Below are positions 21,381 through 36,000 of a DNA stretch of 42,495 bases, piece by piece. A program made the translations under genes and the position numbers. The stretch covers positions 1-42,495 of the forward strand of contig CAYHCQ010000006.1 of assembly GCA_964355115.1 (NCBI GenBank), written 5' to 3'. Source of the stretch: an uncultured Prolixibacteraceae bacterium. GTDB taxonomy: Bacteria; Bacteroidota; Bacteroidia; Bacteroidales; FEN-979. How positions within the stretch are numbered: the first letter of the stretch is position 1; each line of letters opens with the position of its first letter. Below the pieces are notes generated by a model. That model searched no databases. It saw only the letters and a program-made list of their open reading frames with translations, and was not told the origin of the DNA.

Positions 21381-21454
21381 TCCTCCTTAGCTCAGTTGGT
21401 TAGAGCATCTGACTGTTAATCAGAGGGTCGCTAGTTCAAGTCTAGCAGGGGGAG
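21381..21454 (+). tRNA. tRNA-Asn (anticodon GTT)
   Basis: Acceptor TCCTCCT/AGGGGGA, anticodon arm TCTGA-CTGTTAA-TCAGA, T arm GCTAG-TTCAAGT-CTAGC. Confidence 0.97.
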
Positions 21455-21465
21455 CCTCACTGGAC

Positions 21466-21490
21466 AAGCCGGCAGAAATGCCGGCTTTTT
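21466..21490 (+). terminator. Intrinsic terminator after tRNA-Asn
   Basis: AAGCCGGCA-GAAA-TGCCGGCTT plus T run. Confidence 0.85.
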
Positions 21491-21525
21491 CTTTTACTGT
21501 TAAGGGATATGGTGATTGCAACCCG

Positions 21526-22611
21526 TTATCTTGAAAAAAGTTTAACAAGAGGCTCGTTGACATAATAATTTCCAACCCCAAGTTTCTTTTTAATAATTAG
21601 ACCATCCTCTGCAAGCCGGTTAAGATAAGCGGACGCTGTGATCCTGGAAACCCCCAAATCCTTCTGGATAAATTCAATTTTTGTATACGGATGACGGAAC
21701 AGGTTATTGATCAGTTCCTGGCTGTAAAATTTGTACCCGTTTCGTATGCGGTGCTTATAATCCATCATCAACTTTTTTATTTCAAGGATCAGGGAGATAG
21801 TGTCCTGCGAGGTCTTTTCAACACTTTCCAGCATAAAAAGGATCCAGGGTTCCCATTCATTCTTCTCTCTGACATCCTGAAGAAGCTGATAATATTGGTT
21901 TTTATTTTCTATGATATACCGGCTGAGATAAAGTATCGGCAAATGAAGAAGCGAATTCCGGATAAGGTAGAGGATATTGATGATCCGTCCGGTCCGGCCA
22001 TTCCCGTCGTAAAAAGGATGAATGCTCTCGAATTGAAAATGAATGACTGCCATTTTTATCAGTGGATCAGCATCGCACATCGAATTATCATTCATAAATG
22101 CCACCAGATTACTCATTGCAGAAACAATTTCATCATAATCCTGAGGGGGCGTGAATACCACCTGGCCGGTCTGAAGGTTCTTCAGAACAGTGCCCGGCAA
22201 CCGTCTGTAACCGGCTTTGTTGTTTTCAAGTACCGATTGGATCTTCAAAATATGGTTCGAGGTGATCATCTCAGATTGCTCAACCAGGTCAAACCCTTTC
22301 TTCAAAGCTGCAGCGTAGTTCTGTACCTCTTTTGCTGCAGCTGATCGCCATCCCGTTAAATTCAATTCTGCCTTAAACAATTCGTCATGTGTTGTAATGA
22401 TGTTCTCAACGGCAGAACTATCCCGTGCCTCTTGTAATCCCAGGGTGTTCAGTAATATAGTTTGATTGGGAATGGTGCTTCCTATGCCTTTCAGTTCAGC
22501 CAGTGCACGGTGGGCCGCAGGTAATTTCTTAAGTATTTTCCTGGTTTCCAGCTCATGATCTGGCGGAAGCAATGTTGGTTTCCACGGGACATTTGTTTGT
22601 TCGGCCTCCAT
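21526..22611 (-). CDS. Fic family protein (class II-type, N-terminal inhibitory helix, C-terminal wHTH)
   Basis: HPFYDGNGRTGR catalytic motif; SSAVEN inhibitory motif. Confidence 0.93.
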   Translation of the reverse strand: MEAEQTNVPWKPTLLPPDHELETRKILKKLPAAHRALAELKGIGSTIPNQTILLNTLGLQEARDSSAVENIITTHDELFKAELNLTGWRSAAAKEVQNYAAALKKGFDLVEQSEMITSNHILKIQSVLENNKAGYRRLPGTVLKNLQTGQVVFTPPQDYDEIVSAMSNLVAFMNDNSMCDADPLIKMAVIHFQFESIHPFYDGNGRTGRIINILYLIRNSLLHLPILYLSRYIIENKNQYYQLLQDVREKNEWEPWILFMLESVEKTSQDTISLILEIKKLMMDYKHRIRNGYKFYSQELINNLFRHPYTKIEFIQKDLGVSRITASAYLNRLAEDGLIIKKKLGVGNYYVNEPLVKLFSR

Positions 22612-22677
22612 ATGTCAAGAAATTTGAATTTCCTTTCCGAATGATCTCGGTATGCAAAGAATTCTTGATTTTCTTTG

Positions 22678-22721
22678 CAAATATACACACATATGTAAAG
22701 AAAAGGCAAATATCTTTACAT
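22678..22721 (-). promoter_or_regulatory. Fic promoter (-7 TATATTTG) with inverted-repeat operator
   Basis: Reverse TATATTTG at 22678-22685; ATGTAAAGA-N11-TCTTTACAT at 22693-22721. Confidence 0.6.
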
Positions 22722-22760
22722 GTCTTCAGGTACAGGCTGGGATAATAACATCATTGGCCA

Positions 22761-22775
22761 GTTGCAACTTTGAGC
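22761..22775 (+). repeat. Left-half copy of the 28-bp site
   Basis: GTTGCAACTTTGAGC, lacking the TAAGGGGAGCC half; between the two intact Fic genes. Confidence 0.8.
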
Positions 22776-22968
22776 GGCGTATCCAACCAATTACTGCATG
22801 GCCTTTGACCAGATAATTCACAATATATGTCCTTCCCTCTTGAATATGAACAATTACAAAATTTTCCCTGGGTGTAAATATCCAGAAAAGATGTTGCGCC
22901 GTGTCGCATTCATACCGTAAAAATCCTTTTGCATTCAATTCCCCGATCAGGCCGAGACCTTATATGTA

Positions 22969-24120
22969 TCAGTCATTAATTGGTAAAAATCCTTTCTCGC
23001 CAAGAGAATTAATAATCCCACGGAGAAGAAAGTTATTATTAAAACTGATCATGTATTTCCTTGCACCTTCTTTTTCAGGTGATAGCATCTTCTTCTCGAT
23101 CAGTTTCTTAATCTGGCGGGAAATGATAGCATTATCCTGACCCACAAACAGGTCTTTTATATCCAACGCTTGTATAAGTGGTTTCTCAATAGCTCGTTTC
23201 AATATCTTGGCTTCAATATCCGTGATGTATTTCCTTTCAATAGAATGTGTAATAGCAGGTAAAAGGATTTCCAATTTCAAGAAATCATAATCCAGCAATT
23301 TATCGATCTTTTCGATCTCATCCTTCAAACCCTCCAATACATATTCGCACCAGGATAAGATTCCACTATTTTTTCCAGAATCCGCTTCAGATAATTTCTG
23401 ATAGTAAGTGATCCTGTTACTGCAAAACACGGCAGTAGGGTTCAGAATTCTACCTTTGCTGACATTAAATCCCAGCCGGATCATCATTGCATAGGTGAAA
23501 AGGCGGACAGTTCTTCCGTTTCCATTGCCGAAAGGATGTATCCAGACAAAACGGTGATGTGCGATAGCCACCTTGAGCAAATCATACTTGGGACTATCAT
23601 CACGGTTTATGAATTCGATCAGTTCATTCATGTAATCTTCTGCCTTAATCCAGTCTGGCGGTATATGATTAGACTTGGCAATTTTTACATTGTGTTTGCG
23701 ATACTCACCTGGTGTGGCATCACCCTCTTCATCCGGGGAGAGACCATCAACGATCATTTTATGCAACTCGCTTATAAATGCTCTGTTGATTGGATAATCT
23801 TTTACTATATCCTCAATAAATGACATTGCCTTTTCGATGTTCTGGATTTCCCTGATACCAGAGGGAACAGTCTTGGTTTCGACCAGCTTGGTTTCAATAA
23901 ACTCTGCGATGGTGGTATTGTTGCCTTCAATCCGGGCAGAACCAATGCTCTCAAGAGTATGGAAGATATGCTTTAATTGAAAGAATACCTTTGGATGGGT
24001 TGAACCACTAAGACGCTTCCGGCGAAGGTGATCAAGCTCAATGATCAAATCAGTCAACGGAGAACCAAAAGAGGGTTCGACTAGAGATAGATCATAGTGT
24101 ATGAAACTTGGCTTTGTCAT
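22969..24120 (-). CDS. Fic family protein, second subfamily
   Basis: HPFGNGNGRTVR motif; SARIEG inhibitory motif; ATG 24120 chosen. Confidence 0.92.
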   Translation of the reverse strand: MTKPSFIHYDLSLVEPSFGSPLTDLIIELDHLRRKRLSGSTHPKVFFQLKHIFHTLESIGSARIEGNNTTIAEFIETKLVETKTVPSGIREIQNIEKAMSFIEDIVKDYPINRAFISELHKMIVDGLSPDEEGDATPGEYRKHNVKIAKSNHIPPDWIKAEDYMNELIEFINRDDSPKYDLLKVAIAHHRFVWIHPFGNGNGRTVRLFTYAMMIRLGFNVSKGRILNPTAVFCSNRITYYQKLSEADSGKNSGILSWCEYVLEGLKDEIEKIDKLLDYDFLKLEILLPAITHSIERKYITDIEAKILKRAIEKPLIQALDIKDLFVGQDNAIISRQIKKLIEKKMLSPEKEGARKYMISFNNNFLLRGIINSLGEKGFLPIND

Positions 24121-24397
24121 TTGAATACGGATTTGCAAACATTTGACAAAAATAACACATTTATTTGACAATAATTATTTTAATGAACTATTTTTCAGCT
24201 ATCTATCAACATTACTATTCCGTGATCATTTGACCTAATGAATAAAAACAATTGACAGACAGTGTGTGACTCATTTGATGTATTTCAACTCCGTATAAGT
24301 TGAATGTTTTTTACAAAAAAGTGTTGATTCCCATTCTTTACTAAAACAGAACAATCAGAAATTGAACGCTTTAAATTTGCAGGAAGGAAGTTGAGTA

Positions 24398-24425
24398 GTT
24401 GCAACTTTGAGCAGTAAGGAGAGCC
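24398..24425 (+). repeat. 28-bp site copy (att-like)
   Basis: GTTGCAACTTT GAGCAG TAAGGAGAGCC. Confidence 0.9.
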
Positions 24426-24429
24426 TCAA

Positions 24430-24477
24430 GTAGGCCGGTCATGCTGACCACATTGTGCCGATCTGGCTGACCCCTTT
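24430..24477 (+). repeat. IS21-like terminal remnant
   Basis: CCGGTCATGCTGACCAC...CCGATCTGGCTGACCCC tandem GCTGACC boxes resembling IS21-family ends. Confidence 0.4.
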
Positions 24478-24490
24478 AACTGATTAACAA

Positions 24491-25510
24491 TCAATTTATC
24501 AAGGTGGTTATTAAAATTGGCGGAGGCTGGTCAATGTTTGCATATTGTCCACCAATTCTTTCTCCTTCTTTGATCACTGTTTCATAACCCTTTGAAGTAT
24601 TGATCAATAAATCTTGATCGATGCGAATTTTGTTTTTTTCAAACAGCAGCACTACCGTAGAACCCCCGAATTTGAAATACCCTTTCTCGTCCCCTTTTTT
24701 TACAGAATTCCCTCTATAAGTCTGTACGATACTTCCTACCAGGGTCGCACCTACTTCAGCCATTACAACATCTCCAAAATTGGGGTTTGAAATGATGGTA
24801 AACTCCCTTTTGTTCAGGCAGAATATTTCAGTCATTTTGCGCAAAGCAAGGGGGTTAACTGAATAATAATCACCGTTAATCCGGGTGATGGGTGATACGC
24901 TTCCGCTTATGGGAAAATGGAAACGGTGGTAATCGAAAGGGGCAAGCCGGATGATCACCAGGGTGCCATCAAGGTAATTTTGAGCAAGGCGGGCATTATT
25001 TAAAAACGAAAAAATATTGAAGCGGTATCCTTTGATGATAAAATCACTGTTACTGATATTGGCATATGCCAGTATTTTTCCATCGGCAGGCGATACTGTA
25101 ACGTTTGTATTGGTATCTACCGGCCTGGCATTATTCTTAAGTTTCCGGGTAAAGAAATCATTGAAAGAGTTGAATTTCTTTTTCTGGGAGGTACTCATGT
25201 CGATATCAAGTTCTTCAACAAAGGGTTGTATTTTTTTTGTCGATGAAGGAAGATCCATCCTGTTGCCATAAAGAGACGAAACCATCTTTCTTTTGGCCAG
25301 CGCCCACAATGTTGCTTCGCCAACCGGATTATTGTACAGCCACACCAGCCACTTTTCGCCGGCCACTTTTTCCGTTTTTAACAAGCCACTTTGCCTGTCG
25401 AAATATTGGATGGGAGCTTGCGGAGGCAACGGATATGAAGCCAGTATGGCAATGACGGCAAGCAATAACAAAATGAGGCCCCACCTCTTTTTGGTTTTTG
25501 AAATGTACAT
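24491..25510 (-). CDS. psd: Phosphatidylserine decarboxylase family proenzyme
   Basis: FNDFFTRKL, SPADG, RLAP.DYHRFH.P, F.FGGSTVV self-cleavage motif; N-terminal TM. Confidence 0.92.
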   Translation of the reverse strand: MYISKTKKRWGLILLLLAVIAILASYPLPPQAPIQYFDRQSGLLKTEKVAGEKWLVWLYNNPVGEATLWALAKRKMVSSLYGNRMDLPSSTKKIQPFVEELDIDMSTSQKKKFNSFNDFFTRKLKNNARPVDTNTNVTVSPADGKILAYANISNSDFIIKGYRFNIFSFLNNARLAQNYLDGTLVIIRLAPFDYHRFHFPISGSVSPITRINGDYYSVNPLALRKMTEIFCLNKREFTIISNPNFGDVVMAEVGATLVGSIVQTYRGNSVKKGDEKGYFKFGGSTVVLLFEKNKIRIDQDLLINTSKGYETVIKEGERIGGQYANIDQPPPILITTLIN

Positions 25511-25594
25511 CGGTTATTATATTGGTAATGGGTGTCACGTTTCACGGTGCTAAGCTATTAAAAAGACTCAAAATAAAATTCCTCTCAGGGTAAG

Positions 25595-25717
25595 TTATTC
25601 GGTAATTATTGCAACCGCACTGGTGGGCGACCCGTCCGCGTTCTCAACCTTCACTGGTAAGCACCGGAAGGTAAAGCCAGACGGCAGGTCAATTTCAGTT
25701 CATGGTTGGTTTTCTAT
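25595..25717 (-). pseudogene. C-terminal remnant of a cyclase/kynurenine formamidase family gene
   Basis: Reads IENQP*TEIDLPSGFTFRCLPVKVENADGSPTSAVAIITE*, like the family C-terminus IENL...LP.K....DGSP.RA.A; internal stop, no 5' part. Confidence 0.55.
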
Positions 25718-25779
25718 TCTGATTGTTTTACATTTGTTCAGTTCCAGGGATCAATCATTTGGTTAAACCGAACATCTGA

Positions 25780-28700
25780 ATGGTTATTAATCGATTGCTT
25801 CTCATCTCCTTTTTGCTGCTCCCCATGGCGGTTTTACCCCAGCGGTATTTCTTTTCCACATATTCGCTCGGGGAAGGATTATCGCAAAGCGTGGTCAATT
25901 GTCTTTACCAGGATTCCCAGGGGTTTATCTGGGCCGGGACGCAGAACGGATTGAACAAATTTAACGGGTATACATTCGGGGTTTATTCCTATAATCCGTC
26001 TGACACAAACTCCTTGTCCAACAACTGGATCTATTCACTATCCGAAGACCGGGAAGGGGATCTCTGGATTTGCACAAAAAGCGGTCTGAACAGATTTATC
26101 CGGAAAGAGAACAGGTTCCAGCGGATCCATTATGCTAACGGATACCCCCGGGATGTCACAAACTATCCCTATGATGCCATTGTTAGTGCAGACGGAAAGA
26201 TTTTGATAAACACCCCTCCCGTGCTGACAATTTTTGATCCCAGGAAAGGGACCTTCACTCATTTTACCAGCACCCTCGAATATGACGGATCGGTCAAGGA
26301 CAACCGGATTCCCCTCCTGGAAGACAAGAACGGGCTTATCTGGATGGGTTCAACCCGAGGGCTGACCTGCTTCGATCGAAAATCAAAGACTTTTCGCTAC
26401 TTTCCGGCGGTTCCGGGCAGGAAGAATGCCATCAGCGATAACACCGTTACGGCCCTTTTTGAAGACCGCCAGGGATATTTATGGGTAGGCACGGCAAACG
26501 GGTTGAACAGGTATGACAAGAAGACCGGACAGTTCACAGCCTATTACCATGAACCGGGTAATTCACTTTCATTAAGCCATAACTTCATCAGGTCGGTCGT
26601 TGAGGACAATACGGGGAACTTCTGGATCGGAACGGAAGGGGGCGGCCTCAACAAACTCTCTTTCCTGAAGGAGGATCAGCCGTTCTTCGAGGACTTTACC
26701 AGCGAAAATAACCAGCTAAGCCATAATATTGTAAATTCCCTATTCATCGACCGGTCTGAAAACCTATGGGTCGGTACTCTTCAGGGCATCAGCAAGGCCG
26801 ACCTGAAAAAGCATAAGTTCAACCTGTATCGTCGGAGCGATTCTCCAAATTCCGTGGATCTCCTGGGGAACGTCATCGCCTCCATATACAAGGACAAGGA
26901 AGGGATCCTCTGGATCGGGAACTGGGGGCAGGGATTGAATCTTATTGATCGCAGAACTGGCCATGTTGAACATTACTCCACCCGCGAGAAGGGGAACCAC
27001 CGTCTGACGAATGATTTTGTTCACGTGGTTTTCGGCGATCACGACCACCGTATCTGGATAGGGACGCGTGACGGCATTTTCATTTTTGACCAGGCGAAAC
27101 ACCGGTTTTTGAGAATGGATGAGTACTTTAAGAATAGCCGGTTGCCAGATCTTAAAGGGGTCAGGATCTTTATGATAATCCAGGACAGGGATGGAAATTA
27201 CTGGATCGGGACGCAAAACGGTCTTTACCGGGTCAGCGCCTTGAACGGTGCCACTGAGCATTTTTCAGAGCACGCTGACGAGAGCCACCGGATCAGCAGC
27301 AATCTGGTTTACTCCCTGCTGGAAGACCGCGATGGCTTCATCTGGATTGCCACGCTCAACGGACTGGATGCGTGTGATCCGCACAGTGGAAAACTCAGCC
27401 ATTTCCGGAAAACCGAAGGTTCTTCCAACTCTCTCTGCGATAATTTCGTCATCTCCCTATGTGAAGACCATACCGGAGCGATCTGGATAGGGACAAGCAC
27501 CTACGTAAACCGTTTTACAAAGAAAGACTCCCTGTTCACGTATTTCTCCCAGGAGAGCGGGTTGCCTAACAACCGGATCTTCGAAATCCTGGAAGACGGG
27601 CTTCATAATGTCTGGTTTGCGACCGGAAACGGGTTATCAAGGTTTGATTCTGTTTCACAAACCTTCAGAACTTACACTGTTCAGGAAGGGTTGCAAGGTC
27701 CTGAATTCAATCTGCGTGCAAGTTTCAGAAGCGATGACGGGGAAATGTTTTTCGGCGGAATGAACGGATTTAATTCTTTCTATCCCGATTCTATTAAGGA
27801 TAATCCTTTTATTCCGCCGATCGTCTTCACCTCGTTTTACACAATTGTCGGCGGGATAAAAAAATTCCGTGATGTCCAGGAAACACAGGAAGTGGTCCTT
27901 GATTATAATGAAAACACCTTTACCATAGAATTTGCAGCCCTGGAATACAGCAATCCCGGGAATAACCGGTATGCCTACCGACTTGAGGGGGTTTCGGATG
28001 AATGGATCGACCTTGGTAACCGCCGGTTTGTTCCCTTCACGAACCTCCCGGCCGGTGAGTATCGTTTCACAGTCAGGGGATGTAACAATGACGGTAAATG
28101 GAACGAGACAGGAAAAAGCCTGCGTATCGTGATCCATCCTCCCTGGTGGAGAAGCTGGCCTGCCTACATCGCCTATTTCATTTTTTTGGTTATTCTGGTT
28201 ATTCTGTATATCAAATGGAGAGAGCGAAACCTCATCCGGCAGCGGAAGGTCCTTGAAAAAAAAGTTGAAGAGCGGACATTCCAGATTGAGCAGCAGAAAG
28301 AGGAATTGGAGCACCTGAACGCCACGAAGGACAAATTCTTTTCCATAATAGCCCACGATCTGAGGAGCCCTTTTCATACGATCCTGGCATTCTCGGACAT
28401 CCTGCTGTCCGATTTCCGGCAGTTTGACCCGGATAAGATCGAAAAACACCTAACCTACATCAAGGATGCTTCCCACCAGACCTATGAACTTCTTCAGAAC
28501 CTCCTTTTCTGGGCCCGTTCTCAAACCGGCACCCTGGAGTTCAATCCTGTTCCTTTTAACCTGAACGAACGGATCGGGGAAAATCTTTCCCTGGTGAAAA
28601 GCCAGGCGGAGAAAAAAAGTATCGGGATCACACATTCGGGTGCTGAGGGAAAAACAGCACTGGGGGATGTCAATATGATCGATACGGTGCTGCGGAACCT

Positions 28701-29001
28701 GCTAACCAATGCATTAAAATTCACACCGAAAGGGGGCACCGTCAGTGTGCAGGTTAAGGAATCCGGCGATCGATTGGAGATTACCGTAAGAGATTCCGGT
28801 GTTGGCATTGCGCCGGAGAACAGGGCAAAGATTTTCAGGGTCGACAGTAAGTTCACCAAGCATGGAACGGATAATGAGCGCGGTACAGGCCTGGGACTGA
28901 TCCTTTGCAAGGAGTTTGTCGGTCTTCACGGCAGTACGATACATGTTGAAAGTGACCCGGAACGCGGCAGTGAGTTCAGTTTCTTTTTATCCAGGGGATG
29001 A
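25780..29001 (+). CDS. Sensor histidine kinase with two-component regulator propeller repeats and Y_Y_Y domain
   Basis: Many D..G..W.GT..GL repeats, Y.Y.LEG, TM, IIAHDLRSP, NL..NA.KFT, D.G.G, GTGLGL; TACATTTG promoter at 25729-25736; no receiver or AraC domain. Confidence 0.92.
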   Translation: MVINRLLLISFLLLPMAVLPQRYFFSTYSLGEGLSQSVVNCLYQDSQGFIWAGTQNGLNKFNGYTFGVYSYNPSDTNSLSNNWIYSLSEDREGDLWICTKSGLNRFIRKENRFQRIHYANGYPRDVTNYPYDAIVSADGKILINTPPVLTIFDPRKGTFTHFTSTLEYDGSVKDNRIPLLEDKNGLIWMGSTRGLTCFDRKSKTFRYFPAVPGRKNAISDNTVTALFEDRQGYLWVGTANGLNRYDKKTGQFTAYYHEPGNSLSLSHNFIRSVVEDNTGNFWIGTEGGGLNKLSFLKEDQPFFEDFTSENNQLSHNIVNSLFIDRSENLWVGTLQGISKADLKKHKFNLYRRSDSPNSVDLLGNVIASIYKDKEGILWIGNWGQGLNLIDRRTGHVEHYSTREKGNHRLTNDFVHVVFGDHDHRIWIGTRDGIFIFDQAKHRFLRMDEYFKNSRLPDLKGVRIFMIIQDRDGNYWIGTQNGLYRVSALNGATEHFSEHADESHRISSNLVYSLLEDRDGFIWIATLNGLDACDPHSGKLSHFRKTEGSSNSLCDNFVISLCEDHTGAIWIGTSTYVNRFTKKDSLFTYFSQESGLPNNRIFEILEDGLHNVWFATGNGLSRFDSVSQTFRTYTVQEGLQGPEFNLRASFRSDDGEMFFGGMNGFNSFYPDSIKDNPFIPPIVFTSFYTIVGGIKKFRDVQETQEVVLDYNENTFTIEFAALEYSNPGNNRYAYRLEGVSDEWIDLGNRRFVPFTNLPAGEYRFTVRGCNNDGKWNETGKSLRIVIHPPWWRSWPAYIAYFIFLVILVILYIKWRERNLIRQRKVLEKKVEERTFQIEQQKEELEHLNATKDKFFSIIAHDLRSPFHTILAFSDILLSDFRQFDPDKIEKHLTYIKDASHQTYELLQNLLFWARSQTGTLEFNPVPFNLNERIGENLSLVKSQAEKKSIGITHSGAEGKTALGDVNMIDTVLRNLLTNALKFTPKGGTVSVQVKESGDRLEITVRDSGVGIAPENRAKIFRVDSKFTKHGTDNERGTGLGLILCKEFVGLHGSTIHVESDPERGSEFSFFLSRG

Positions 29002-29035
29002 CCGTTGTTTCCAATGGCCAGGATGCAGGTCTCCG

Positions 29036-29063
29036 GTTGCAACTTTGAGCAATAAGGGGAGCC
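29036..29063 (+). repeat. 28-bp site copy (att-like)
   Basis: GTTGCAACTTT GAGCAA TAAGGGGAGCC. Confidence 0.92.
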
Positions 29064-29068
29064 ATACA

Positions 29069-29104
29069 GGACAAGCCGGCAGAAATGTTGGCTTGTTTCG
29101 TTTT
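29069..29104 (+). terminator. Duplicate of the tRNA-Asn terminator
   Basis: GGACAAGCCGGCAGAAATG (29069-29087) identical to 21462-21480; 3' arm TGTTGGCTTGT still pairs via G-U. Confidence 0.8.
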
Positions 29105-29185
29105 ACCACCCCCAGAAAGACTTGATAATTGGGCAATTAGCCGACCTTTCCAACCAGCTGGCTGATCATCAACTAAAGTATTATA

Positions 29186-30715
29186 TCATTTGCTAAGCAG
29201 ATATGCTTTTACCCGTTGCCTGTAACTATCCACTATTTCGAATCCAACGGATTCACAATAGCCCACACCATCGTTATGCGTGGCTGACAAATCTTCGTAG
29301 TCTACCGGGTTCTCGCTGATAACCTGCAATGACTGTCCGTTAAAGGTGCCGTCGATGAACCAGGGAGTCGCTTTCCCGTTTAAAGACACACCCACACTTG
29401 TAATATTGGCATATTCCCATTCGGAGGGGTACAGGACCTGTGTAGAAGAGGGATCATCAACGATGGCAGGGTGGCCCACAAAATTTTTGAGCATCATCTC
29501 GCCAAAGATGAAGATGGATTCCCATCCGGTTGAACTGGCATTGGGCTTGATATAATAGCCATAACTGAATGGCACGGAGGGTTGCATGTTCCCCAGCTGA
29601 AATGAAGCTCCTGTATAAGCATCCCCCTGTTCGAGGTTAAAATACTGCCAGCTCCAACCGTTGTATGGCTTCACCTCTTCCAGGAAGGGGATTGGGTGAA
29701 CCGCATTGCCGGCATTCTTCAGGCTGTGCATCATCAGCTGGTGGTCCATCCACCCGTTGCCACCTTCAATGGTATAGGTTTTCCCTTCCAGCAGGATCTC
29801 ATTGGAAGCGGTGGTATCCAGCCGAAGCTGAGGCCAGCTGTAATAGATTCCCGGAGAAGGAACTCCAGTAAAACCTGTTCCTGAGAAGGTGGAAGGATTG
29901 GGAGCCCCCTGAAGGAAAAACGCGTTTTGTGATTCCATGCCGGCCCTTGGGATAAGCGGTAGTGAGAACGACATGTTAGTGCCGTCTTTCACTTCCATGA
30001 CGAGGGGCAATACATTCTGGCCTCCTGTCAATTTATCATTGCCGCAATAAAAAGAGAAATCCTGTCCGGGAACACTGAAACCGCCATTGCCCCCCAGGGC
30101 AGGCAACTGCAGGTTTTCGCTCCGGCGGATGATCTTTGTATTTCCGGGGAAATCGATGGTAGCGGTAACCAAACTGACAAACAGCATACAGCCATTATCG
30201 GAAAACCCGTACTTCTTCTGTGTAGTGAGTCCGATGATGCGCTGTTTCTGGATGGAAAGGAGAATACCAATCCTCCCTTTGGCACCCGATGCATCGGTTG
30301 CACCGAGGCTTAAGCCAATGTAATACCATTCAAATCCCATTCGGGCATCCATATGGTGTGCAGCAGGGAACGTCAGTCCCGCATTAGGATCCGGCAACTG
30401 GCAATCCACATCACTTGCCCTGCCCAGAAGGGAATAAATGCATGCCGTATATTTCTCCGGATCATTCACGGATTCGATATTTGCTGCGGACTGATAGATG
30501 AGATCGAAATCAGGGATTTGGAGTGGCCCTCCTGTGGTGGTATCGGTGATCGCCGCCACCGAATCCTTTACCAGCAATAGATGGGATTGAACCGCTTCAG
30601 TGAATTTGTTGTCGGGGGAGGAATCGGGTTTGTTCTTTTTGCATCCCGCCATGATGGTGAAGCAACAGATTAATGCCAGAATCCCTGCTGTTTGAAAACT
30701 TGTGTTACATTTCAT
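29186..30715 (-). CDS. Lipoprotein with AttH/CrtC-like (lipocalin-like) hydrolase domain
   Basis: Lipobox MAGC; FP..H......EWYY, YYS.P.L, G.GWMDHQ, GW.W motifs; reverse TACCTTTG at 30745-30752. Confidence 0.75.
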   Translation of the reverse strand: MKCNTSFQTAGILALICCFTIMAGCKKNKPDSSPDNKFTEAVQSHLLLVKDSVAAITDTTTGGPLQIPDFDLIYQSAANIESVNDPEKYTACIYSLLGRASDVDCQLPDPNAGLTFPAAHHMDARMGFEWYYIGLSLGATDASGAKGRIGILLSIQKQRIIGLTTQKKYGFSDNGCMLFVSLVTATIDFPGNTKIIRRSENLQLPALGGNGGFSVPGQDFSFYCGNDKLTGGQNVLPLVMEVKDGTNMSFSLPLIPRAGMESQNAFFLQGAPNPSTFSGTGFTGVPSPGIYYSWPQLRLDTTASNEILLEGKTYTIEGGNGWMDHQLMMHSLKNAGNAVHPIPFLEEVKPYNGWSWQYFNLEQGDAYTGASFQLGNMQPSVPFSYGYYIKPNASSTGWESIFIFGEMMLKNFVGHPAIVDDPSSTQVLYPSEWEYANITSVGVSLNGKATPWFIDGTFNGQSLQVISENPVDYEDLSATHNDGVGYCESVGFEIVDSYRQRVKAYLLSK

Positions 30716-30811
30716 AGTTGATGGGTTTAACCGCGGAAATATTTCAAAGGTAGTGTTTCCAGGCAGATTTAGGTTGGTTCTTTCTATTAATAAATTCTGT
30801 TGGACTTATAT

Positions 30812-30912
30812 TGCATAAACCGGATAAACTGACCACTTTAACTTTTTTATAACAATGTTTTGGGGCGGTAAAATTAATCGGCGTAATATGGTCAATTTGG
30901 TCAGCGTATGCA
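30812..30912. mobile_element. ~101-bp MITE-like remnant with IS21-like terminal inverted repeats
   Basis: Left TGCATAAACCGGATAAACTGACCA vs reverse complement of right end TGCATACGCTGACCAAATTGACCA (17/24); no clear target duplication. Confidence 0.45.
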
Positions 30913-30933
30913 TTACAGATAGGAAGTCAGATG

Positions 30934-30961
30934 GTTGCAACTTTGTGCTGTAAGGGGAGCC
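30934..30961 (+). repeat. 28-bp site copy (att-like)
   Basis: GTTGCAACTTT GTGCTG TAAGGGGAGCC. Confidence 0.9.
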
Positions 30962-30969
30962 TCGGAATA

Positions 30970-31052
30970 AGTGAAGAGTGAAGAGTGAAGAGTGAAGAGC
31001 TTTTCGTTTTTCACTTTTCTTTTTTCACTCAACTCTTCTCATTATTCACTTT
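30970..31052. repeat. Heptamer tandem repeat (AGTGAAG)x4 followed by degenerate complementary heptamers
   Basis: 30970-30997 perfect x4; TTCACT-type units in 31000-31052 can fold back. Confidence 0.85.
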
Positions 31053-31077
31053 CCGACCCCTGGAAACCTCTGAATGG

Positions 31078-31605
31078 TTATCGTTCAAACAAATTCAGAT
31101 ACTTTTCAAAAATGAAGATGCGGTTTCTCTTGAATCCTGTTTTTTCGGTGAGGATATTGAGTTTCTCAAAGTTCTGAATTAACCGGTTTGCCGTTGAGAT
31201 ATTCACAGCAAGTACTGTCGCCACTTCGGAGGCATCTACGACAGGCTTGGTGTATAAATACCGGATCAGTTGCATTGCAAGCGGAACTGGTTATTCTGAG
31301 TTCTCACGGCGGTTAGGTTGTGGCATTTGCAAATCTTCATTGTTCAATAATTTTTCAAGATCGCTCATCAATCCGGGCACTTCACTGTGATGGGGCGGAA
31401 TATAGGCTGCATCATTCAGCGTAGCGCCCCCAATCCAGTTTTGCGAGGTACGGAACTCACCGGGCAATTTGTATTTCCCCCGGATAAAAAAATCCACATC
31501 AGGAACCTTCATCGAAAAGGCATTCAACTCACCAAGTTTCCTGGTAGCATCATTCAGTAGCCGGTTTACCTTTGCATCGCTTACCAGCCATTCGTGGTTC
31601 ACAGT
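31078..31605 (-). pseudogene. Internally deleted Fic family gene
   Basis: LL..A...LGELN, PGEFR.SQNWIGG, IPP, SDLEK and the C-terminal TG.KRNRIF wHTH are present; the SxxxEG and HPFxDGNGR motifs are missing; split by a stop. Confidence 0.85.
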
Positions 31606-31614
31606 TAAACCATT

Positions 31615-31646
31615 ATCTGCAATTATAAAAATTTATATTTGCAGAT
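31615..31646. promoter_or_regulatory. 32-bp near-perfect palindrome upstream of the Fic pseudogene
   Basis: ATCTGCAATTATAAAAATTTATATTTGCAGAT; 15-bp arms with one mismatch, containing -7-like elements on both strands. Confidence 0.6.
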
Positions 31647-31706
31647 GACTCCTAAATTGTCATATGCGGTTTGAAAACTTTCCACCCCCAGAAAGGAAGT
31701 TGTCGT

Positions 31707-31734
31707 GTTGCAACTTTGAGCATTAAGGGGAGCC
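31707..31734 (+). repeat. 28-bp site copy (att-like)
   Basis: GTTGCAACTTT GAGCAT TAAGGGGAGCC. Confidence 0.92.
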
Positions 31735-31741
31735 ATAGTGG

Positions 31742-31775
31742 ACAGGAGGTCAAAATCGACCTCCTGTTTTTTTTT
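31742..31775 (+). terminator. Intrinsic terminator right after the 28-bp site
   Basis: ACAGGAGGTC-AAAATC-GACCTCCTGT plus T run. Confidence 0.85.
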
Positions 31776-31984
31776 CGACCGCTGGATCCACCCCTACAGA
31801 CAAAATGATGGTTATTCTAAATCAGCCCGTGGGAGGATGATTTGAGTATCTGGTTTTTTAATATATTTGGGATAAATTATGCGTGATTGTAAAACACTAT
31901 GGCAAGCATTTTGAAAATATCAGAAAACTGCGGGAACGTTTGCGAATCTGTGAAACAGGTGCATAGTAATAATACCATAAGGCC

Positions 31985-33226
31985 ATGAAAATTCTTCGTA
32001 TTTTGCTTCCTGCAGTTCTCCTACTGGCGGCAGCCTGTTCTAAAAACAAAAGTAGCGATCCATATGTACCGGTTTCCGATCCCACGCTTGTAACCCTGCA
32101 ATCCATGGTAACCCATTTGGATTCGGCTTACAAAGCAAAATATCCGGGTTTCCCTGGCGGACTTGCGCTGAAAGTCATCACCGGCAGAGGAGAGTGGTTC
32201 GTCTCGTCGGGGATGCCGGGAGGGACTTCCGGGAATGTTTATTTTCGTACAGCTAGCGTGACCAAGACTTTCACAGCCACCGCCATTTTACGGCTTGCCC
32301 AGGAAGGCAGAATTAATCTGAACGACAGGATCACCGATACCATCCCCGGCATGTTGATGACCTATGTCCCCGACGACGAAAACTACGCCATTCCTTACAA
32401 GAACTTTATCACCATCAGGCAGTTGCTGCAAAACAAGGCCGGTGTGTTTGACCTCCCCAACGACGAGATTCCCGATACGGTTTCAGTCCAGGTTCCCTAT
32501 AAAGGTCAGAACTACCTTGACTGGGTCATGTTAAGCGATAAACTTCACACCTTTACATTCGACGAACTGTTAGGGGTTGTTGCAAAATGCCGCCTTTATT
32601 ATTTTTTCCCCGGAACAGGATATCATTATTCGAATACCGGGTTTTCAATTTTGGGAAAGATCATCGAACGTGTTTCGGGCCAGTCATACGGCCAATATGT
32701 CTCGGAACATATATTGCAACCCATGGGATTGGATCACTGCAGTCTGCCCTACCTTGGTAGTGACACAAACCTTCCGGTGCCGTTTGCTCCGGGATATCTT
32801 TATCAGCCCCAGGTAAATGAAGTCACTTACCAGAACATGTCAGCCAATGTGGCAGAAGGGAACCTCATCACCACCCCCGACGATCTTTCGCACTTTGGCC
32901 GCCGGCTTTTCCGGGGTGAGGGCGTACTGAGCTCCTTTACAGTCAATGCGGAAATGCTCAAACCGATGGTTCCGCCCGATACCATGCAAAACTATCTTTG
33001 CGGTGTGGAGGTATTCCGCAACCTGGGATACGGCCATGGAGGGAATCATCCGGGATATAATTCCCTGATGGTCAGCGATCCTGTGAATGATTTCACCTGC
33101 GTAGTGTTCATCAACGCCTGGAATGCATCGCTCCCCGGGGCCACAGGCATCATCGAACAGGTCACGAACATGGTGTATGAGAGCGCTTACCAGGCCCAGC
33201 ACATTGTCCAGGCAGGAAAAAAGTAA
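31985..33226 (+). CDS. Serine hydrolase lipoprotein (beta-lactamase class C / D-Ala-D-Ala peptidase fold)
   Basis: Lipobox AAAC; ASVTK, YSN, GHGG motifs. Confidence 0.9.
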   Translation: MKILRILLPAVLLLAAACSKNKSSDPYVPVSDPTLVTLQSMVTHLDSAYKAKYPGFPGGLALKVITGRGEWFVSSGMPGGTSGNVYFRTASVTKTFTATAILRLAQEGRINLNDRITDTIPGMLMTYVPDDENYAIPYKNFITIRQLLQNKAGVFDLPNDEIPDTVSVQVPYKGQNYLDWVMLSDKLHTFTFDELLGVVAKCRLYYFFPGTGYHYSNTGFSILGKIIERVSGQSYGQYVSEHILQPMGLDHCSLPYLGSDTNLPVPFAPGYLYQPQVNEVTYQNMSANVAEGNLITTPDDLSHFGRRLFRGEGVLSSFTVNAEMLKPMVPPDTMQNYLCGVEVFRNLGYGHGGNHPGYNSLMVSDPVNDFTCVVFINAWNASLPGATGIIEQVTNMVYESAYQAQHIVQAGKK

Positions 33227-33324
33227 CAGCCAAATCCGTTTAAACAGATGGTTGTCTCTTCCGATCGGCCTGGGGTGGTCAATACCGTCGGTTTGTCCAG
33301 ATAAACTGGCTCTTCTTATTTTAT

Positions 33325-34443
33325 TCAGGAAACTAGAATTTTTAAAAGCTCATGGAAGACATGCATCGGATAGGGATATTCACCGTTGAAGAAGATGATG
33401 ATCGTGATGTTTTTCTGAGGATTTCTAGCAGCAAAAGTGTGGTAACCCATACCATCACCGGCATGACCCAGATAATTGTCGCGGAACCTCATAATCCCCA
33501 AGCCATATTCCATGTCTTGGAATATCGGAGAGAAAACCTGCATCTGTTCAAAAAGGGAAGATGAAACCAAACTTCCGGAAGTTAGCTCGTATATCCATTT
33601 CCTCAATTCATTCATGTCGGATATGATAGCACCTGCTGAATAGGCCACTGACATGTTGAATTTCTCAGTAACTTCAAAATATTCATAGTTATCGTCAAAC
33701 ATATATCCATTGGAGTAAGTCTTTTCCTCAGGCATAAATTGCGATTCGGCAAATGATGTATTCCCCATATCCTGGGGTTGGGTTATCCTGCTATGAAGTG
33801 CGTTGCTGTAAGGTGTACCTGTGAGATCTTCGATTAAAATTCCAAGAATGATGAAGTTTGAATTGCTGTATTGAGTTTTTTCGCCAGGCTGAAAATCGGG
33901 TTCGTGCCGTTTTATTGCTGCCAGAAGCTCCTCCCGACTAAAATAATGATTTGGGTCATTATCGAATTCCTGAGCAATAATCGAATCATTGTTTACTTCA
34001 AACAAACCGCTTTGCATGGCGAGCATCTGACGGATAGTGATCTTGTCTCCGTTAGGAATACCAGGAAGGTATTTGCCAATGGTATCTTCCAATCCTATTT
34101 TCCCTTCATCCACCAGTTGCAGCAGCATGACAGCAGTGTATGTTTTGGTCACACTTGCGATTCTGAACAGATCGGCGACCTGCATTGGTCTTTTAATTGA
34201 GAGACTGGAATAACCTTTGGGTTTCAAATATGTGTACCCCATATCCGGAGCCCAGATGCCGATTATCAAACCGGGAAGAGGCACATTTTTCCCGTGGAGC
34301 ATAAGGTCGGTCACCAAAGAGTCGGCCAGCTGGTCTATTTGTGCTGTGTACTTGTCAACATGTTGCACATCTTCTTTCTTCTTGCATCCTGTCAAAATGA
34401 CTAAACAGATCAGAATGACGTTGATCAGGTTGAGTACTTTCAT
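33325..34443 (-). CDS. Serine hydrolase lipoprotein (beta-lactamase family fold)
   Basis: Lipobox LTGC; FRIASVTK, YSNS, GHAG motifs; start MKVLN at 34443. Confidence 0.9.
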   Translation of the reverse strand: MKVLNLINVILICLVILTGCKKKEDVQHVDKYTAQIDQLADSLVTDLMLHGKNVPLPGLIIGIWAPDMGYTYLKPKGYSSLSIKRPMQVADLFRIASVTKTYTAVMLLQLVDEGKIGLEDTIGKYLPGIPNGDKITIRQMLAMQSGLFEVNNDSIIAQEFDNDPNHYFSREELLAAIKRHEPDFQPGEKTQYSNSNFIILGILIEDLTGTPYSNALHSRITQPQDMGNTSFAESQFMPEEKTYSNGYMFDDNYEYFEVTEKFNMSVAYSAGAIISDMNELRKWIYELTSGSLVSSSLFEQMQVFSPIFQDMEYGLGIMRFRDNYLGHAGDGMGYHTFAARNPQKNITIIIFFNGEYPYPMHVFHELLKILVS

Positions 34444-34516
34444 AGTTATGAATTTTGGATACATTAAAATTAATGGTTTAGAGGCAAATACCAAGGTAAA
34501 AAATGAAAGTCTTCAT

Positions 34517-34539
34517 GTTGCAACTTAGAGAGAGAAGCC
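34517..34539 (+). repeat. Degenerate copy of the 28-bp site
   Basis: GTTGCAACTTAGAG..AGAAGCC, intergenic, same orientation as the others. Confidence 0.6.
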
Positions 34540-34591
34540 AAACCCCGATTACCAAGTGTTTCATCAGTGACTTCAGAGTATCTATAATGGG

Positions 34592-35788: not shown

Positions 35789-35816
35789 TTTGAGTTATTT
35801 TGTAAGTTGAATCAGT

Positions 35817-36000
35817 TCAGTAGTTGTTTCCATGTAAAATATTCATGAACCGCTTGAAGAGGTAATCCGGCTCCGTTTCAAGCAGGCAACAAGCATGATT
35901 CATCATCTGAATAATTGAATATCCCGCTGGTCATGTTGCAGAGCATGGTAATGGTGATGCTGTCTGACCTGGGGTATTCAGGAAAACACTTCGACAATTT
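35817..36000 (-). pseudogene. Collapsed remnant of a third serine hydrolase
   Basis: KLSKCFPEYPRSDSITITMLCNMTSGIFNYSDD joined to a C-terminus EPDYLFKRFMNILHGNNY*. Confidence 0.7.

What the first reader, a model, noticed from the sequence alone, without database searches (positions are those of the whole stretch)
21381..34540. tRNA-Asn-anchored tandem cassette array delimited by a repeated 28-bp recombination-like site, with no integrase
Seen: GTTGCAACTTT-N6-TAAGG(G/A)GAGCC occurs at 24398, 29036, 30934 and 31707, with partial copies at 22761 and 34517. All six are co-oriented and intergenic, and I found no copy longer than 9 bp in the first 21 kb. The last 8 nt (GGGGAGCC) equal the tRNA-Asn 3' end at 21449-21456. 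The sites cut the island into self-contained units: Fic (1.3 kb), Fic (1.6 kb), psd plus kinase (4.6 kb), AttH-like lipoprotein (1.9 kb), Fic pseudogene (0.75 kb) and two serine hydrolases (2.8 kb). Established: tyrosine integrases target tRNA 3' ends (e.g. Bacteroides NBU1/NBU2), and tandem islands can accrete there. Inference: these units are too small to be ICEs and carry no integrase or mob gene, so they look like non-autonomous cassettes added one at a time by a trans-acting recombinase. That would be an integron-like system using a tRNA end rather than attI/attC.
Basis: partly seen in the sequence, partly recalled or inferred. Interest (0 to 1): 0.9.

Follow-up and report, generated by a model that had tools for sequence, protein, structure and literature searches.

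The report
Cassette-like gene array behind tRNA-Asn
Behind a tRNA-Asn gene lies a row of small, horizontally exchanged gene modules, each ending in the same 28-base junction sequence; in relatives a small serine-recombinase module sits at that junction, so this looks like a new Bacteroidales counterpart of staphylococcal cassette chromosomes rather than a new kind of integron.

Summary
GTTGCAACTTT-N6-TAAGGRGAGCC occurs four times (24398, 29036, 30934, 31707; 0 expected by chance). There are two decayed copies (22761, 34517). The full motif occurs nowhere else in this genome.

It recurs in 33 of 90 genomes of the family and in 10 sampled genomes of 8 other families. It usually forms co-oriented clusters downstream of tRNA-Asn.

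The units between sites are 85-96% identical across genera, while core flanks are 67-78% identical. Homology stops at the site ends. The sequences that follow the tRNA end and those that follow 28-mers come from one shared pool. The sites are therefore junctions of site-specific recombination.

The window and its genome do lack any dedicated integrase. However, in relative G047 a 2.2-kb module (a large serine recombinase plus a 122-aa ORF, ending in the 28-mer) sits exactly between the tRNA end and a Fic unit that is homologous to the window's first unit. Recombinase remnants follow 28-mers in two other arrays. A roughly 55-nt trace follows site 31707 in the window.

My best reading is an SCC-like composite island at the tRNA-Asn 3' end, driven in trans by a mostly absent serine recombinase. 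The catalyst is inferred, not shown. The chromosomal dif and classical integron readings were tested and rejected. The island extends at least to the contig end.

The parts
21381..21456 (+). tRNA-Asn (GTT). Its last 8 nt, GGGGAGCC, are the left partner of the first junction.
   Evidence: ARAGORN; Rfam tRNA, 69 bits; sequence.
21457..22788 (.). Unit 1. It has a T-type left end (terminator hairpin at 21466-21487 and a TTGCAAC word about 60 nt after the junction), Fic gene 21526-22611 (-), and a decayed right-end site at 22761-22788.
   Evidence: It is homologous (78.7% over 1275 bp) to the unit that follows a 28-mer in G047, starting 7 nt before the tRNA or site end.
22789..24425 (.). Unit 2. 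Fic gene 22969-24171 (-) and intact 28-mer at 24398-24425.
   Evidence: It is 87.7% identical over 1480 bp to a G042 unit, with homology ending exactly at the site end in both. It is 90.1% identical to a G010 copy.
24426..29063 (.). Unit 3. Long phosphatidylserine-decarboxylase paralog 24491-25510 (-), Reg_prop/Y_Y_Y histidine kinase 25780-29001 (+), and 28-mer at 29036-29063, 35 nt after the kinase stop.
   Evidence: The PSD gene is 88.8-92.9% identical in DNA to copies in seven arrays of other genera and 84.1% to same-genus G075. A second, shorter psd lies on C74.
29064..30961 (.). Unit 4. T-type left end, 509-aa protein of unknown family at 29186-30715 (-), and 28-mer at 30934-30961.
   Evidence: In run X23 this unit is 99.0% identical while the neighbouring kinase piece is 94.8% identical. 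Contigs break at both sites.
30962..31734 (.). Unit 5. Long repeat-hairpin terminator at 30973-31019, a Fic_N-like fragment at 31291-31602 (-), and 28-mer at 31707-31734.
31735..34544 (.). Unit 6. A roughly 55-nt remnant of the serine-recombinase module's left end (31735-31790, with hairpin 31740-31769), beta-lactamase-family genes 31985-33226 (+) and 33325-34494 (-), and a decayed site at 34517-34544.
   Evidence: (20 aa, 70% identity, E 0.009).
34545..37220 (.). Eroded continuation. C45-family acyltransferase/hydrolase 34592-35788 (-), HipA_C fragment 36082-36750 (-), and a duplicated 5' part of the PSD gene at 36795-37133 (-). No intact site is present.
   Evidence: Repeat D1: 36816-37115 is 91% identical to 25193-25492. 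Homology to PSD units of seven arrays in other genera and of same-genus G075.
37303..41470 (+). GH81 glycosidase (with a T9SS tail) plus a metallophosphoesterase. This is the same module that is bounded by two 28-mers in G010.
   Evidence: It is 85.9% identical over 4168 bp to G010 (with the G010 layout).
41555..42495 (.). Fic fragment (41555-41673, 92% identical to 22412-22530) and the start of an outer-membrane beta-barrel module that is site-bounded in G039. It is cut by the contig end.
   Evidence: repeat D5; 85.6% over 582 bp to G039; OMP_b-brl.

Best explanation
The 28-mer is the conserved right-end junction sequence of a family of small integrative modules of 0.8-5 kb, each carrying one to a few genes. 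These modules accumulate head to tail at the 3' end of tRNA-Asn.

Each module begins with a terminator-like hairpin and ends with GTTGCAACTTT-N6-TAAGGGGAGCC. Recombination takes place at or within the shared GGGGAGC, so the tRNA end and any 28-mer are equivalent left partners.

The most likely catalyst is a large serine recombinase (LSR). It is carried by a minimal 2.2-kb driver module made of the LSR, a 122-aa ORF that looks to me like an HTH/antitoxin-type protein (no family hit), and the 28-mer. This module inserts with the recombinase's 3' end against the tRNA end. It can come and go, or decay, leaving integrase-less cargo modules behind.

This genome has no serine recombinase. Its array is therefore a composite island that is now immobile unless a driver arrives. 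In logic it resembles staphylococcal and enterococcal cassette chromosomes with their ccr-less pseudo-elements.

What is shown: the sites, their link to tRNA-Asn, module exchange with breakpoints at the sites, and the position of the recombinase at the junction. What is inferred: that this recombinase acts on the 28-mer, and the pick-up and delivery cycle.
For: Distribution:
- the motif (up to 2 mismatches) gives 64 matches in 33 of 90 family genomes and 7 of 13 genera. The reversed-pattern control gives 0.
- 13 of 401 order genomes match, 10 of them in 8 other families. Control 0.

Link to tRNA-Asn:
- in 10 of 17 array loci a co-oriented tRNA-Asn lies upstream. In 6 of the other 7, the contig ends upstream of the array.
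- the sites sit at the right end of units whatever the gene orientation. Plus-strand genes stop 4-55 nt before a site.

Exchange of units:
- Units are 85.9-94.2% identical between genera. Core flanks are 66.9-78.4% identical, even within a genus.
- Homology ends at the site end, with offsets 0/0, +2/+2, +2/+2 and -1/-1 in four genome pairs.
- The window's tRNA-adjacent Fic1 unit equals G047's unit that follows a 28-mer. So G047 is the same arrangement plus a 2.2-kb insert placed exactly at the tRNA end.

Shared pool of left ends:
- 19 of 20 distinct tRNA-Asn downstream ends cluster with sequences that follow 28-mers. There are 7 mixed clusters holding 36 of 66 site ends.
- Caveat: 5 of the tRNA ends came from contigs that were chosen because they carry the recombinase.

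The recombinase:
- the G047 insert encodes a Resolvase + Recombinase protein.
- no second junction lies between that gene and the 28-mer.
- homologs of 54-62% identity abut the tRNA-Asn 3' end in G060 and in 7 metagenome contigs.
- recombinase 3' remnants start directly after 28-mers in G035 and G050. A 55-nt trace follows site 31707 in the window.
- it is the only recombinase listed in the Pfam tally of 75 array ORFs (the first 25 of 71 families are shown).

Strain-level data:
- In run X23, identity jumps from 94.8% to 99.0% at site 29036-29063.
- An 8.9-kb X5 contig leaves the window sequence at 28996.
Against: - No serine recombinase is present in this genome (0 hits; 94.9% complete).
- None was found in 5 of 5 site-bearing genomes of other families.
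- A close full-length copy is present in only 2 of 90 family genomes, against 33 with sites.
- None of the metagenome recombinase contigs, including a 15.5-kb one, carries a 28-mer with up to 5 mismatches.
- Serine integrases normally use unlike attP and attB sites and leave inert hybrid sites. Tandem growth, and recombinase remnants in mid-array, therefore require either non-canonical site use or later insertions at the tRNA end.
- The 8-nt identity with the tRNA end and the 11+6+11 layout would suit a tyrosine recombinase as well.
- No circle, empty site or excision joint was seen. Only contigs could be laid.
- Site decay is not ordered by distance from the tRNA. The copy nearest the tRNA is one of the two decayed ones.
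Confidence: 0.55

Rival explanations
1. The 28-mers are sites of another, unidentified recombinase encoded elsewhere, for example a tyrosine recombinase. On this view the serine-recombinase elements are just further passengers that target the same tRNA-Asn hot spot.
For: - Sites are far commoner than the serine recombinase: 33 against 2 of 90 genomes. In other families, 0 of 5 site-bearing genomes have it.
- Recombinase contigs lack 28-mers.
- The 11+6+11 layout and the 8-nt identity with the tRNA end fit a tyrosine-recombinase core.
- The genome holds an integron-type integrase on C147.
Against: - This genome has only three tyrosine recombinases: an XerC-like, an XerD-like and the integron-type one.
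- The integron-type enzyme heads its own array with its own, quite different repeats in G056.
- No tyrosine recombinase lies on the array contigs of the 10 relatives scanned.
- In G047 the recombinase module is bounded by exactly the same two junction types as every other unit, with no extra junction inside it.
Confidence: 0.2
2. The array is a fossil of classical tRNA-targeted islands. The repeats would be displaced tRNA 3' fragments left by integrases now lost. Nothing moves as small units; similarity between genomes would reflect transfer of larger islands followed by deletions.
For: - The sites end in the tRNA's last 8 nt.
- Two sites are decayed, and the junctions beyond 34.5 kb are eroded.
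- No recombinase is present in this genome.
Against: - Only 8-10 nt match the tRNA. The other 18-20 nt are not tRNA-like, yet they are the best conserved part, at about 2 bits per position over 54 copies.
- Single units recur in different genera with different neighbours, and homology ends at the sites.
- Units as small as 0.8-1.6 kb are individually bounded.
Confidence: 0.12
3. The 28-mer is a regulatory or RNA element, such as an insulator, a promoter-like site, a small-RNA start or a processing signal placed before a terminator. The modular pattern would then arise from gene transfer plus homologous recombination.
For: - Every intact site is followed by a hairpin. The three best terminator-like hits in 21-36 kb lie just after the tRNA and after two of the sites.
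- GTTGCAAC is a palindrome of the kind that dimeric regulators bind. A second TTGCAAC word lies 57-59 nt downstream in 9 of 62 copies, against 0 of 62 upstream.
Against: - No Rfam family matches any of the sites.
- The motif is confined to this one locus in the genome.
- It sits at unit ends whatever the gene orientation.
- The tRNA end substitutes for it as the left partner at exact breakpoints. An 8-nt identity cannot support homologous recombination of that kind.
Confidence: 0.08
4. The 28-mer is the chromosome's dif site, and the array consists of Xer-dependent (IMEX-like) modules.
For: - The site has the 11+6+11 = 28 bp architecture.
- 17 relatives have exactly one copy.
- No integrase is present.
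- In the complete genome G056 the site lies at 51.6% of the record.
Against: - A canonical dif-like 28-mer is single-copy in G000 (C179:161-188), G075, G056 and G065.
- In G056 that dif-like site (9,648) sits at the plus-to-minus GC-skew switch. The tRNA-Asn site (1,830,834) lies about 90 kb from the minus-to-plus switch near 1.74 Mb.
Confidence: 0.01

Closest known systems
Staphylococcal and enterococcal cassette chromosomes (SCCmec, ECC) and their ccr-less pseudo-SCC neighbours
   Same: - Large serine recombinases insert elements at the 3' end of a conserved gene.
- The elements are bounded by direct-repeat att sequences.
- Gene content is highly variable.
- Remnants and recombinase-less elements sit beside the insertion gene.
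- The recombinase genes often lie on small contigs.

These ECC and SCCmec features come from passages of PMC6222049. That ccr-less pseudo-SCC elements form tandem composite islands is my own recollection, not from a call.
   Different: - The target here is a tRNA-Asn 3' end, not rlmH.
- The host is Bacteroidales.
- There is a single recombinase, only distantly related to Ccr: CcrB 92.6 bits and CcrC 78.3 bits against cut-offs of 900.
- Units are much smaller, at 0.8-5 kb.
- The recombinase is missing from most arrays.
- The att core is different.
Tycheposons and tRNA-linked islands of Prochlorococcus
   Same: - Elements integrate at tRNA genes.
- New arrivals push older ones further into the island.
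- Fragmented integrases and partial tRNAs mark older events.
- A minority of these elements carry a large serine recombinase.

These points come from passages of bioRxiv 10.1101/2020.12.28.424599.
   Different: - Tycheposons mostly use tyrosine recombinases (910 of 937) and often carry replication modules.
- Here no replication genes were seen, the units are single-gene sized, and the repeated junction is a 28-mer of which only 8-10 nt are tRNA-derived.
Integrons (gene cassettes with attC, integrase IntI)
   Same: - The outcome is similar: a row of small exchangeable units, each ending in a conserved recombination site, drawn from a pool shared between genera, beside one primary site.
   Different: - No IntI lies next to the array.
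- No hairpin-type attC structure is present.
- Genes lie in both orientations, with their own intergenic regions.
- The candidate enzyme is a serine recombinase, not a tyrosine recombinase.
- The family also has a separate classical integron.
Xer-dependent elements at dif (IMEX) and dif modules
   Same: - The modules lack an integrase and are bounded by a 28-bp site with an 11+6+11 layout.
   Different: - The true dif is elsewhere and unrelated in sequence.
- The array is not at the terminus-type skew switch.

Membership tests
Integron | An integron integrase (IntI) encoded next to the primary site and the cassette array. | tested here: not met
   No PF00589 hit on contig C6. The genome's IntI-like gene is on C147. 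Its G056 homolog heads a different array.
Integron | attC sites, which are imperfect palindromes with conserved outer boxes (consensus recalled, not from a call). | tested here: not met
   The conserved part is a one-sided 28-mer followed by unrelated hairpins. No conserved 3' box is present, except a TTGCAAC word in one left-end type.
Integron | Mostly promoterless, co-oriented single-ORF cassettes. | tested here: not met
   Genes lie on both strands. Some units hold two divergent or convergent genes.
Cassette chromosome (SCC/ECC-like) | A Ccr-type large serine recombinase. | tested here: not met
   The window and its genome have no serine recombinase. The relatives' enzyme scores 92.6 (CcrB) and 78.3 (CcrC) bits against cut-offs of 900.
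Cassette chromosome (SCC/ECC-like) | Site-specific insertion at the 3' end of one conserved gene, with elements bounded by direct att repeats and tandem elements with or without the recombinase. | tested here: met
   The tRNA-Asn 3' end takes the place of rlmH.
Large-serine-recombinase integrative element | A recombinase gene with Resolvase and Recombinase domains at one end of the element, next to the att junction. | tested here: met
   Met in relatives only: G047, G060 and 7 metagenome contigs. In the window only a roughly 55-nt trace remains.
Large-serine-recombinase integrative element | Simple att sites of about 40-50 bp with a central dinucleotide and imperfect dyad symmetry, with attP unlike attB (recalled). 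| tested here: inconclusive
   I found only a weak dyad by eye. The crossover cannot be placed more precisely than within or just after GGGGAGC.
tRNA-targeted genomic island of the tyrosine-integrase type | A tyrosine integrase in the island and a displaced tRNA 3' fragment at the far end. | tested here: not met
   No tyrosine recombinase lies on the window's contig or on the array contigs of the 10 relatives scanned. Only 8-10 nt of the site match the tRNA.
dif / Xer-dependent element | The site is the single chromosomal dif at the replication terminus. | tested here: not met
   A canonical dif lies elsewhere.

The most novel reading that the evidence does not exclude
This would be a true gene-cassette system of Bacteroidales that works like an integron but is built on a serine recombinase. 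A minimal 2.2-kb driver cassette (the recombinase plus a 122-aa ORF that may encode an HTH-type protein) would dock at the tRNA-Asn 3' end. Using the 28-mer as a universal cassette end, it would excise, carry and deposit single-gene cassettes from a pool shared across at least nine families. The tRNA end and every 28-mer would be equivalent recombination partners.
Probability: 0.3. Interest if true: 0.8.

Novelty: new variant of a known kind. Interest (0 to 1): 0.6.

Why it matters
- **A route for gene exchange.** If the reading holds, environmental Bacteroidales exchange single genes between genera through a dedicated docking site behind tRNA-Asn. The cargo includes Fic enzymes, secreted T9SS proteins, lipoproteins, hydrolases and a second PS-decarboxylase.
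- **A wider principle.** It would extend the cassette-chromosome principle, so far described in staphylococci and enterococci (PMC6222049, passages), to another phylum and to a tRNA target.
- **An unusual enzyme target.** It would add a serine recombinase to the enzymes that target tRNA 3' ends, a role usually ascribed to tyrosine integrases (abstract of PMC4383910, as listed).
- **A possible tool.** A 2.2-kb self-contained recombinase module with a short defined site could be useful for engineering Bacteroidota.
- **A practical marker.** The 28-mer is also a simple marker for finding these hypervariable loci in MAGs.

Tried and rejected
**Chromosomal dif / IMEX idea.** It was suggested by the 11+6+11 layout, the single copies in 17 relatives and the mid-genome position in G056. 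It was rejected. DnaA-box clustering and gene-strand bias were too noisy to place the origin.

**Promoter reading.** The motif holds a TTTG-type word, but no gene follows it on the + strand and a terminator comes at once.

**Known RNA families.** Nothing lies at the sites (E up to 5).

**Integron-integrase link.** The C147 enzyme is integron-like, but it belongs to a separate attC-type array.

**Carriers.** There was no exact 28-mer in viral contigs. The recombinase has no close relative in plasmids or phages (below 27% identity).

**Reads.** Only contigs were available. No excision or circle joint was found. The one long 'skip' (21455 to 30970, run X5, 30 letters on the short side, 9 letters between) is most simply another organism's tRNA-Asn followed by a similar terminator. 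Parts without cover in X5, X7 and X23 prove nothing.

**Generalisation to other tRNAs.** Distant recombinase homologs abut tRNA-Leu and tRNA-Met. I found no repeated tRNA-tail copies in the stretches fetched.

**T-type left ends as recombinase-gene scars.** The alignment is suggestive but not significant.

**G011 recombinase remnant.** It is not next to a site.

**Same-genus comparison.** G075 has tRNA-Asn and the PSD gene but no 28-mer in the stretch examined (up to 6 mismatches) and none genome-wide at up to 2 mismatches.

**Literature.** Searches found no description of this locus. Supplements were closed and not seen; the dif tables of PMC3025954 may bear on the dif call.

Full report
**1. 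The observation**

- The pattern GTTGCAACTTT-N6-TAAGGRGAGCC matches four times on the + strand, at 24398, 29036, 30934 and 31707. None is expected in shuffles.
Each keeps the left part and has 9 mismatches.
- tRNA-Asn(GTT) lies at 21381-21456 and ends in GGGGAGCC.
- The window is the whole of contig C6 of a 3.48-Mb, 266-contig genome. The full motif occurs nowhere else in it. Six of the genome's seven GTTGCAACTT words lie in this island.
- The gene calls are mostly right: two Fic genes, a PS-decarboxylase, a Reg_prop/Y_Y_Y histidine kinase and two beta-lactamase-family hydrolases. The 'AttH-like' and 'Fic pseudogene' labels rest on weak hits.

**2. The motif is a conserved feature of the lineage and is tied to tRNA-Asn**

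- With up to 2 mismatches it gives 64 matches in 33 of 90 genomes of the family (7 of 13 genera). The reversed-pattern control gives none.
- In a sample of 401 genomes of the order it occurs in 13. Ten of these lie outside the family, in 8 other families, again with control 0.
- Matches are often clustered and co-oriented.
- I fetched 17 array loci. In 10 of them a co-oriented tRNA-Asn lies upstream. In 6 of the other 7 the contig ends just upstream. One locus (G015:C31) has no tRNA-Asn within 9.4 kb.
- Two loci from another family also show tRNA-Asn about 1 kb upstream.
- A record title printed suggests that the family is Prolixibacteraceae.

**3. Anatomy of a unit**

- Over 54 copies the 28 positions carry about 1.4-2 bits each, apart from the semi-variable six in the middle and the last base. 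Conservation drops sharply on both sides.
- The site always sits at the right end of a unit. Genes on the + strand stop 4-55 nt before it. Genes on the - strand start 20-280 nt before it.
- Directly after the site comes a hairpin with a T run. In the window, the three best terminator-like hits between 21 and 36 kb are those after the tRNA, after site 30934 and after site 31707.
- Cargo across 75 ORFs of 15 arrays is mixed: T9SS-tailed proteins 9, Fic 7, PS-decarboxylase 5, Fib_succ_major lipoproteins 5, plus kinases, hydrolases and outer-membrane proteins. The only recombinase listed (first 25 of 71 families shown) is one Resolvase-domain protein.

**4. The units are exchanged horizontally, and the breakpoints are at the sites**

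All figures here come from an all-against-all DNA comparison.

- Unit identities between genera:

| Unit | Genome pair | Identity |
|---|---|---|
| Fic2 | window vs G010 | 90.1% |
| Fic2 | window vs G042 | 87.7% |
| PS-decarboxylase gene | window vs seven arrays of other genera | 88.8-92.9% |
| GH81 + phosphoesterase | window vs G010 | 85.9% over 4168 bp |
| (unit) | G010 vs G065 | 94.2% |
| (unit) | G005 vs G065 | 91.3% |

- Core flanks are only 70-78% identical to the same-genus genome G075, and 66.9% to G056.
- Homology ends at the site end with offsets of 0/0 (window and G042), +2/+2 (G005 and G065), +2/+2 (G010 and G065) and -1/-1 (G015 and G052).
- The array's PS-decarboxylase is a second, longer paralog. 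A 249-aa psd lies on C74.
- I compared the sequences that follow GGGAGC at tRNA-Asn ends with those that follow it at 28-mers. They belong to one pool. Nineteen of 20 distinct tRNA ends fall into 7 clusters that also hold 36 of 66 site ends. Five of those tRNA ends came from contigs picked for the recombinase.
- The tRNA end and the 28-mer are therefore interchangeable left partners of a precise junction. That is the signature of site-specific recombination, not of homologous exchange.

**5. A recombinase at the junction**

- The window has no integrase. Its genome has just three tyrosine recombinases (XerC-like, XerD-like and an integron-type enzyme) and no serine recombinase.
- No tyrosine recombinase lies on the array contigs of the 10 relatives scanned.
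- In G047 the first unit after tRNA-Asn encodes a 584-aa ORF with Resolvase and Recombinase domains. Its 3' end runs into the tRNA end. A 122-aa ORF follows, which looks to me like an HTH/antitoxin-type protein but has no family hit, and then a 28-mer.
- The unit after that 28-mer is homologous to the window's Fic1 unit, which in the window follows the tRNA directly. The homology starts 7 nt before the tRNA end in one genome and 7 nt before the site end in the other. G047 thus looks like the window's arrangement plus a 2.2-kb insertion exactly at the tRNA end.
- Homologs of 54-62% identity abut the tRNA-Asn 3' end in G060 and in 7 metagenome contigs. Of the 12 long matches, one further contig abuts tRNA-Leu, three are cut before the C-terminus, and one has no tRNA.
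- Remnants of the recombinase's 3' end begin right after 28-mers in G035 and G050. A second remnant in G035 lies about 0.9 kb after another site.
- The window keeps about 55 nt of the same left end after site 31707.
- The enzyme is far from characterised families: XisF 101 bits, CcrB 93 and CcrC 78, all far below their cut-offs. It has no close relative in plasmid or phage collections.

**6. How it most likely works**

What is shown:
- The junctions and their equivalence.
- The mobility of the units.
- The recombinase module occupying the same junctions.

What is inferred:
- The serine recombinase integrates circles at the tRNA-Asn end.
- It can excise from the tRNA junction to any downstream 28-mer.
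- It is itself often lost or decays, leaving integrase-less cargo units behind. This would resemble cassette chromosomes with ccr-less neighbours (ECC/SCCmec passages of PMC6222049; the ccr-less pseudo-SCC part is recalled) and the push-along arrays of tycheposons.

Weak points:
- The recombinase is rare relative to the sites: 2 against 33 of 90 genomes, and 0 of 5 site-bearing genomes of other families.
- Recombinase contigs without any 28-mer exist.
- Serine integrases normally leave inert hybrid sites, so tandem growth needs non-canonical site use.
- No circle or excision joint was observed.
- A second TTGCAAC word lies 57-59 nt after the junction in 9 of 62 copies and at 100 nt in one more, against 0 of 62 upstream. 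This hints at a more complex site than a minimal serine-integrase att.

**7. Strain-level data**

- Run X3, from another study, holds the same array at 100% identity.
- An 8.9-kb contig of X5 matches 28254-28996 and then continues with unlike sequence, about 40 nt before site 29036.
- In X23 the kinase piece 28229-29062 is 94.8% identical, while unit 29049-30961 is 99.0% identical. Contigs break at both sites.
- These data are consistent with unit-level exchange but do not prove it.

**8. Extent of the island**

- Beyond 34540 the array continues in eroded form.
- It holds a C45-family gene, a HipA_C fragment and a duplicated 5' part of the PS-decarboxylase gene (36816-37115, 91% identical to 25193-25492).
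- Next comes the GH81 plus phosphoesterase module, which is bounded by 28-mers in G010.
- Then follow a Fic fragment and the start of an outer-membrane module that is site-bounded in G039. This last module is cut by the contig end.

**9. Rejected readings**

- The dif reading fails. A canonical dif-like site is single-copy elsewhere (G000 C179:161-188). In G056 it lies at the terminus-type skew switch, while the tRNA-Asn site lies about 90 kb from the origin-type switch.
- The integron reading fails on integrase position, site structure and cassette form. The family's integron-type integrase heads its own array.
- No Rfam family matches the sites.

**10. Verdict**

- The finding is real and conserved.
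- It is best described as an SCC-like composite island of small modules at the tRNA-Asn 3' end, with a distinctive 28-bp junction and a likely serine-recombinase driver.
- It is a new variant of a known kind, not a categorically new system.
- The literature searches found no description of it.

Noticed in passing
G000:C179:161-188 (not in the window); also G056:C1:9648-9675, G075:C54:72662-72689 and G065:C23:94251-94278: There is a single-copy canonical dif-like 28-mer that is nearly identical across four genomes of three genera. In G056 it coincides with the plus-to-minus GC-skew switch.
   Followed up: partly
G000:C147:429-1526 (L153); G056:C1:634665-641200 (L155:4666-11300): A 365-aa tyrosine recombinase scores as an integron-type integrase (TIGR02249 231 bits; NF040815 226 bits, above its cut-off). 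In G056 its homolog is followed by six small co-oriented ORFs separated by attC-like imperfect palindromes. This appears to be a classical chromosomal integron in this family. In several assemblies the gene sits at a contig edge.
   Followed up: partly
G056:C1:3510404-3510883: dnaA lies near the terminus-type skew switch and near the dif-like site. It does not lie near the origin-type switch at about 1.74 Mb.
   Followed up: no
window 36816-37115 vs 25193-25492; window 36082-36750: A 300-nt duplicate (91% identical) of the 5' part of the array's PS-decarboxylase gene lies next to a HipA_C kinase fragment. It looks like a second, truncated PSD unit.
   Followed up: partly
window 41555-41673 vs 22412-22530: A 119-nt fragment near the contig end is 92% identical to the 5' part of the Fic1 gene.
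   Followed up: no
window about 21513-21527, and 57-59 nt after 9 of 62 sites in relatives: A second TTGCAAC word, preceded by a TAAGGGA-like word, lies at a fixed distance downstream of the junction in the T-type left ends. In the recombinase-type left end examined by eye (G047) a similar word lies about 100 nt downstream, inside the recombinase's 3' coding end; one of the 62 copies counted has a word at 100 nt.
   Followed up: partly
window 30970-31020: The terminator after site 30934 is built from tandem GTGAAGA-type repeats. Similar repeat-hairpins follow tRNA-Asn or 28-mers in other genomes.
   Followed up: no
G033:C187, G035:C47 (tRNA-Leu); G068:C2, G053:C209 (tRNA-Met); L142 (tRNA-Leu): Distant homologs of the serine recombinase (23-27% identity; 58% for L142) also abut, or in G053 lie within about 150 nt of, the 3' ends of other tRNA genes. 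This suggests a wider tRNA-targeting clade of serine recombinases.
   Followed up: partly
G010:C7 vs G037:C12 and G037:C133: Two genomes filed under different genera carry the same site sequences with identical spacing, and one site even has the same contig coordinate. This could be cross-binning or very recent transfer.
   Followed up: no
L047:10736-10790 vs L047:8820-8860: In G047, a 40-50-nt piece of the region upstream of the recombinase gene recurs right after the second 28-mer.
   Followed up: no
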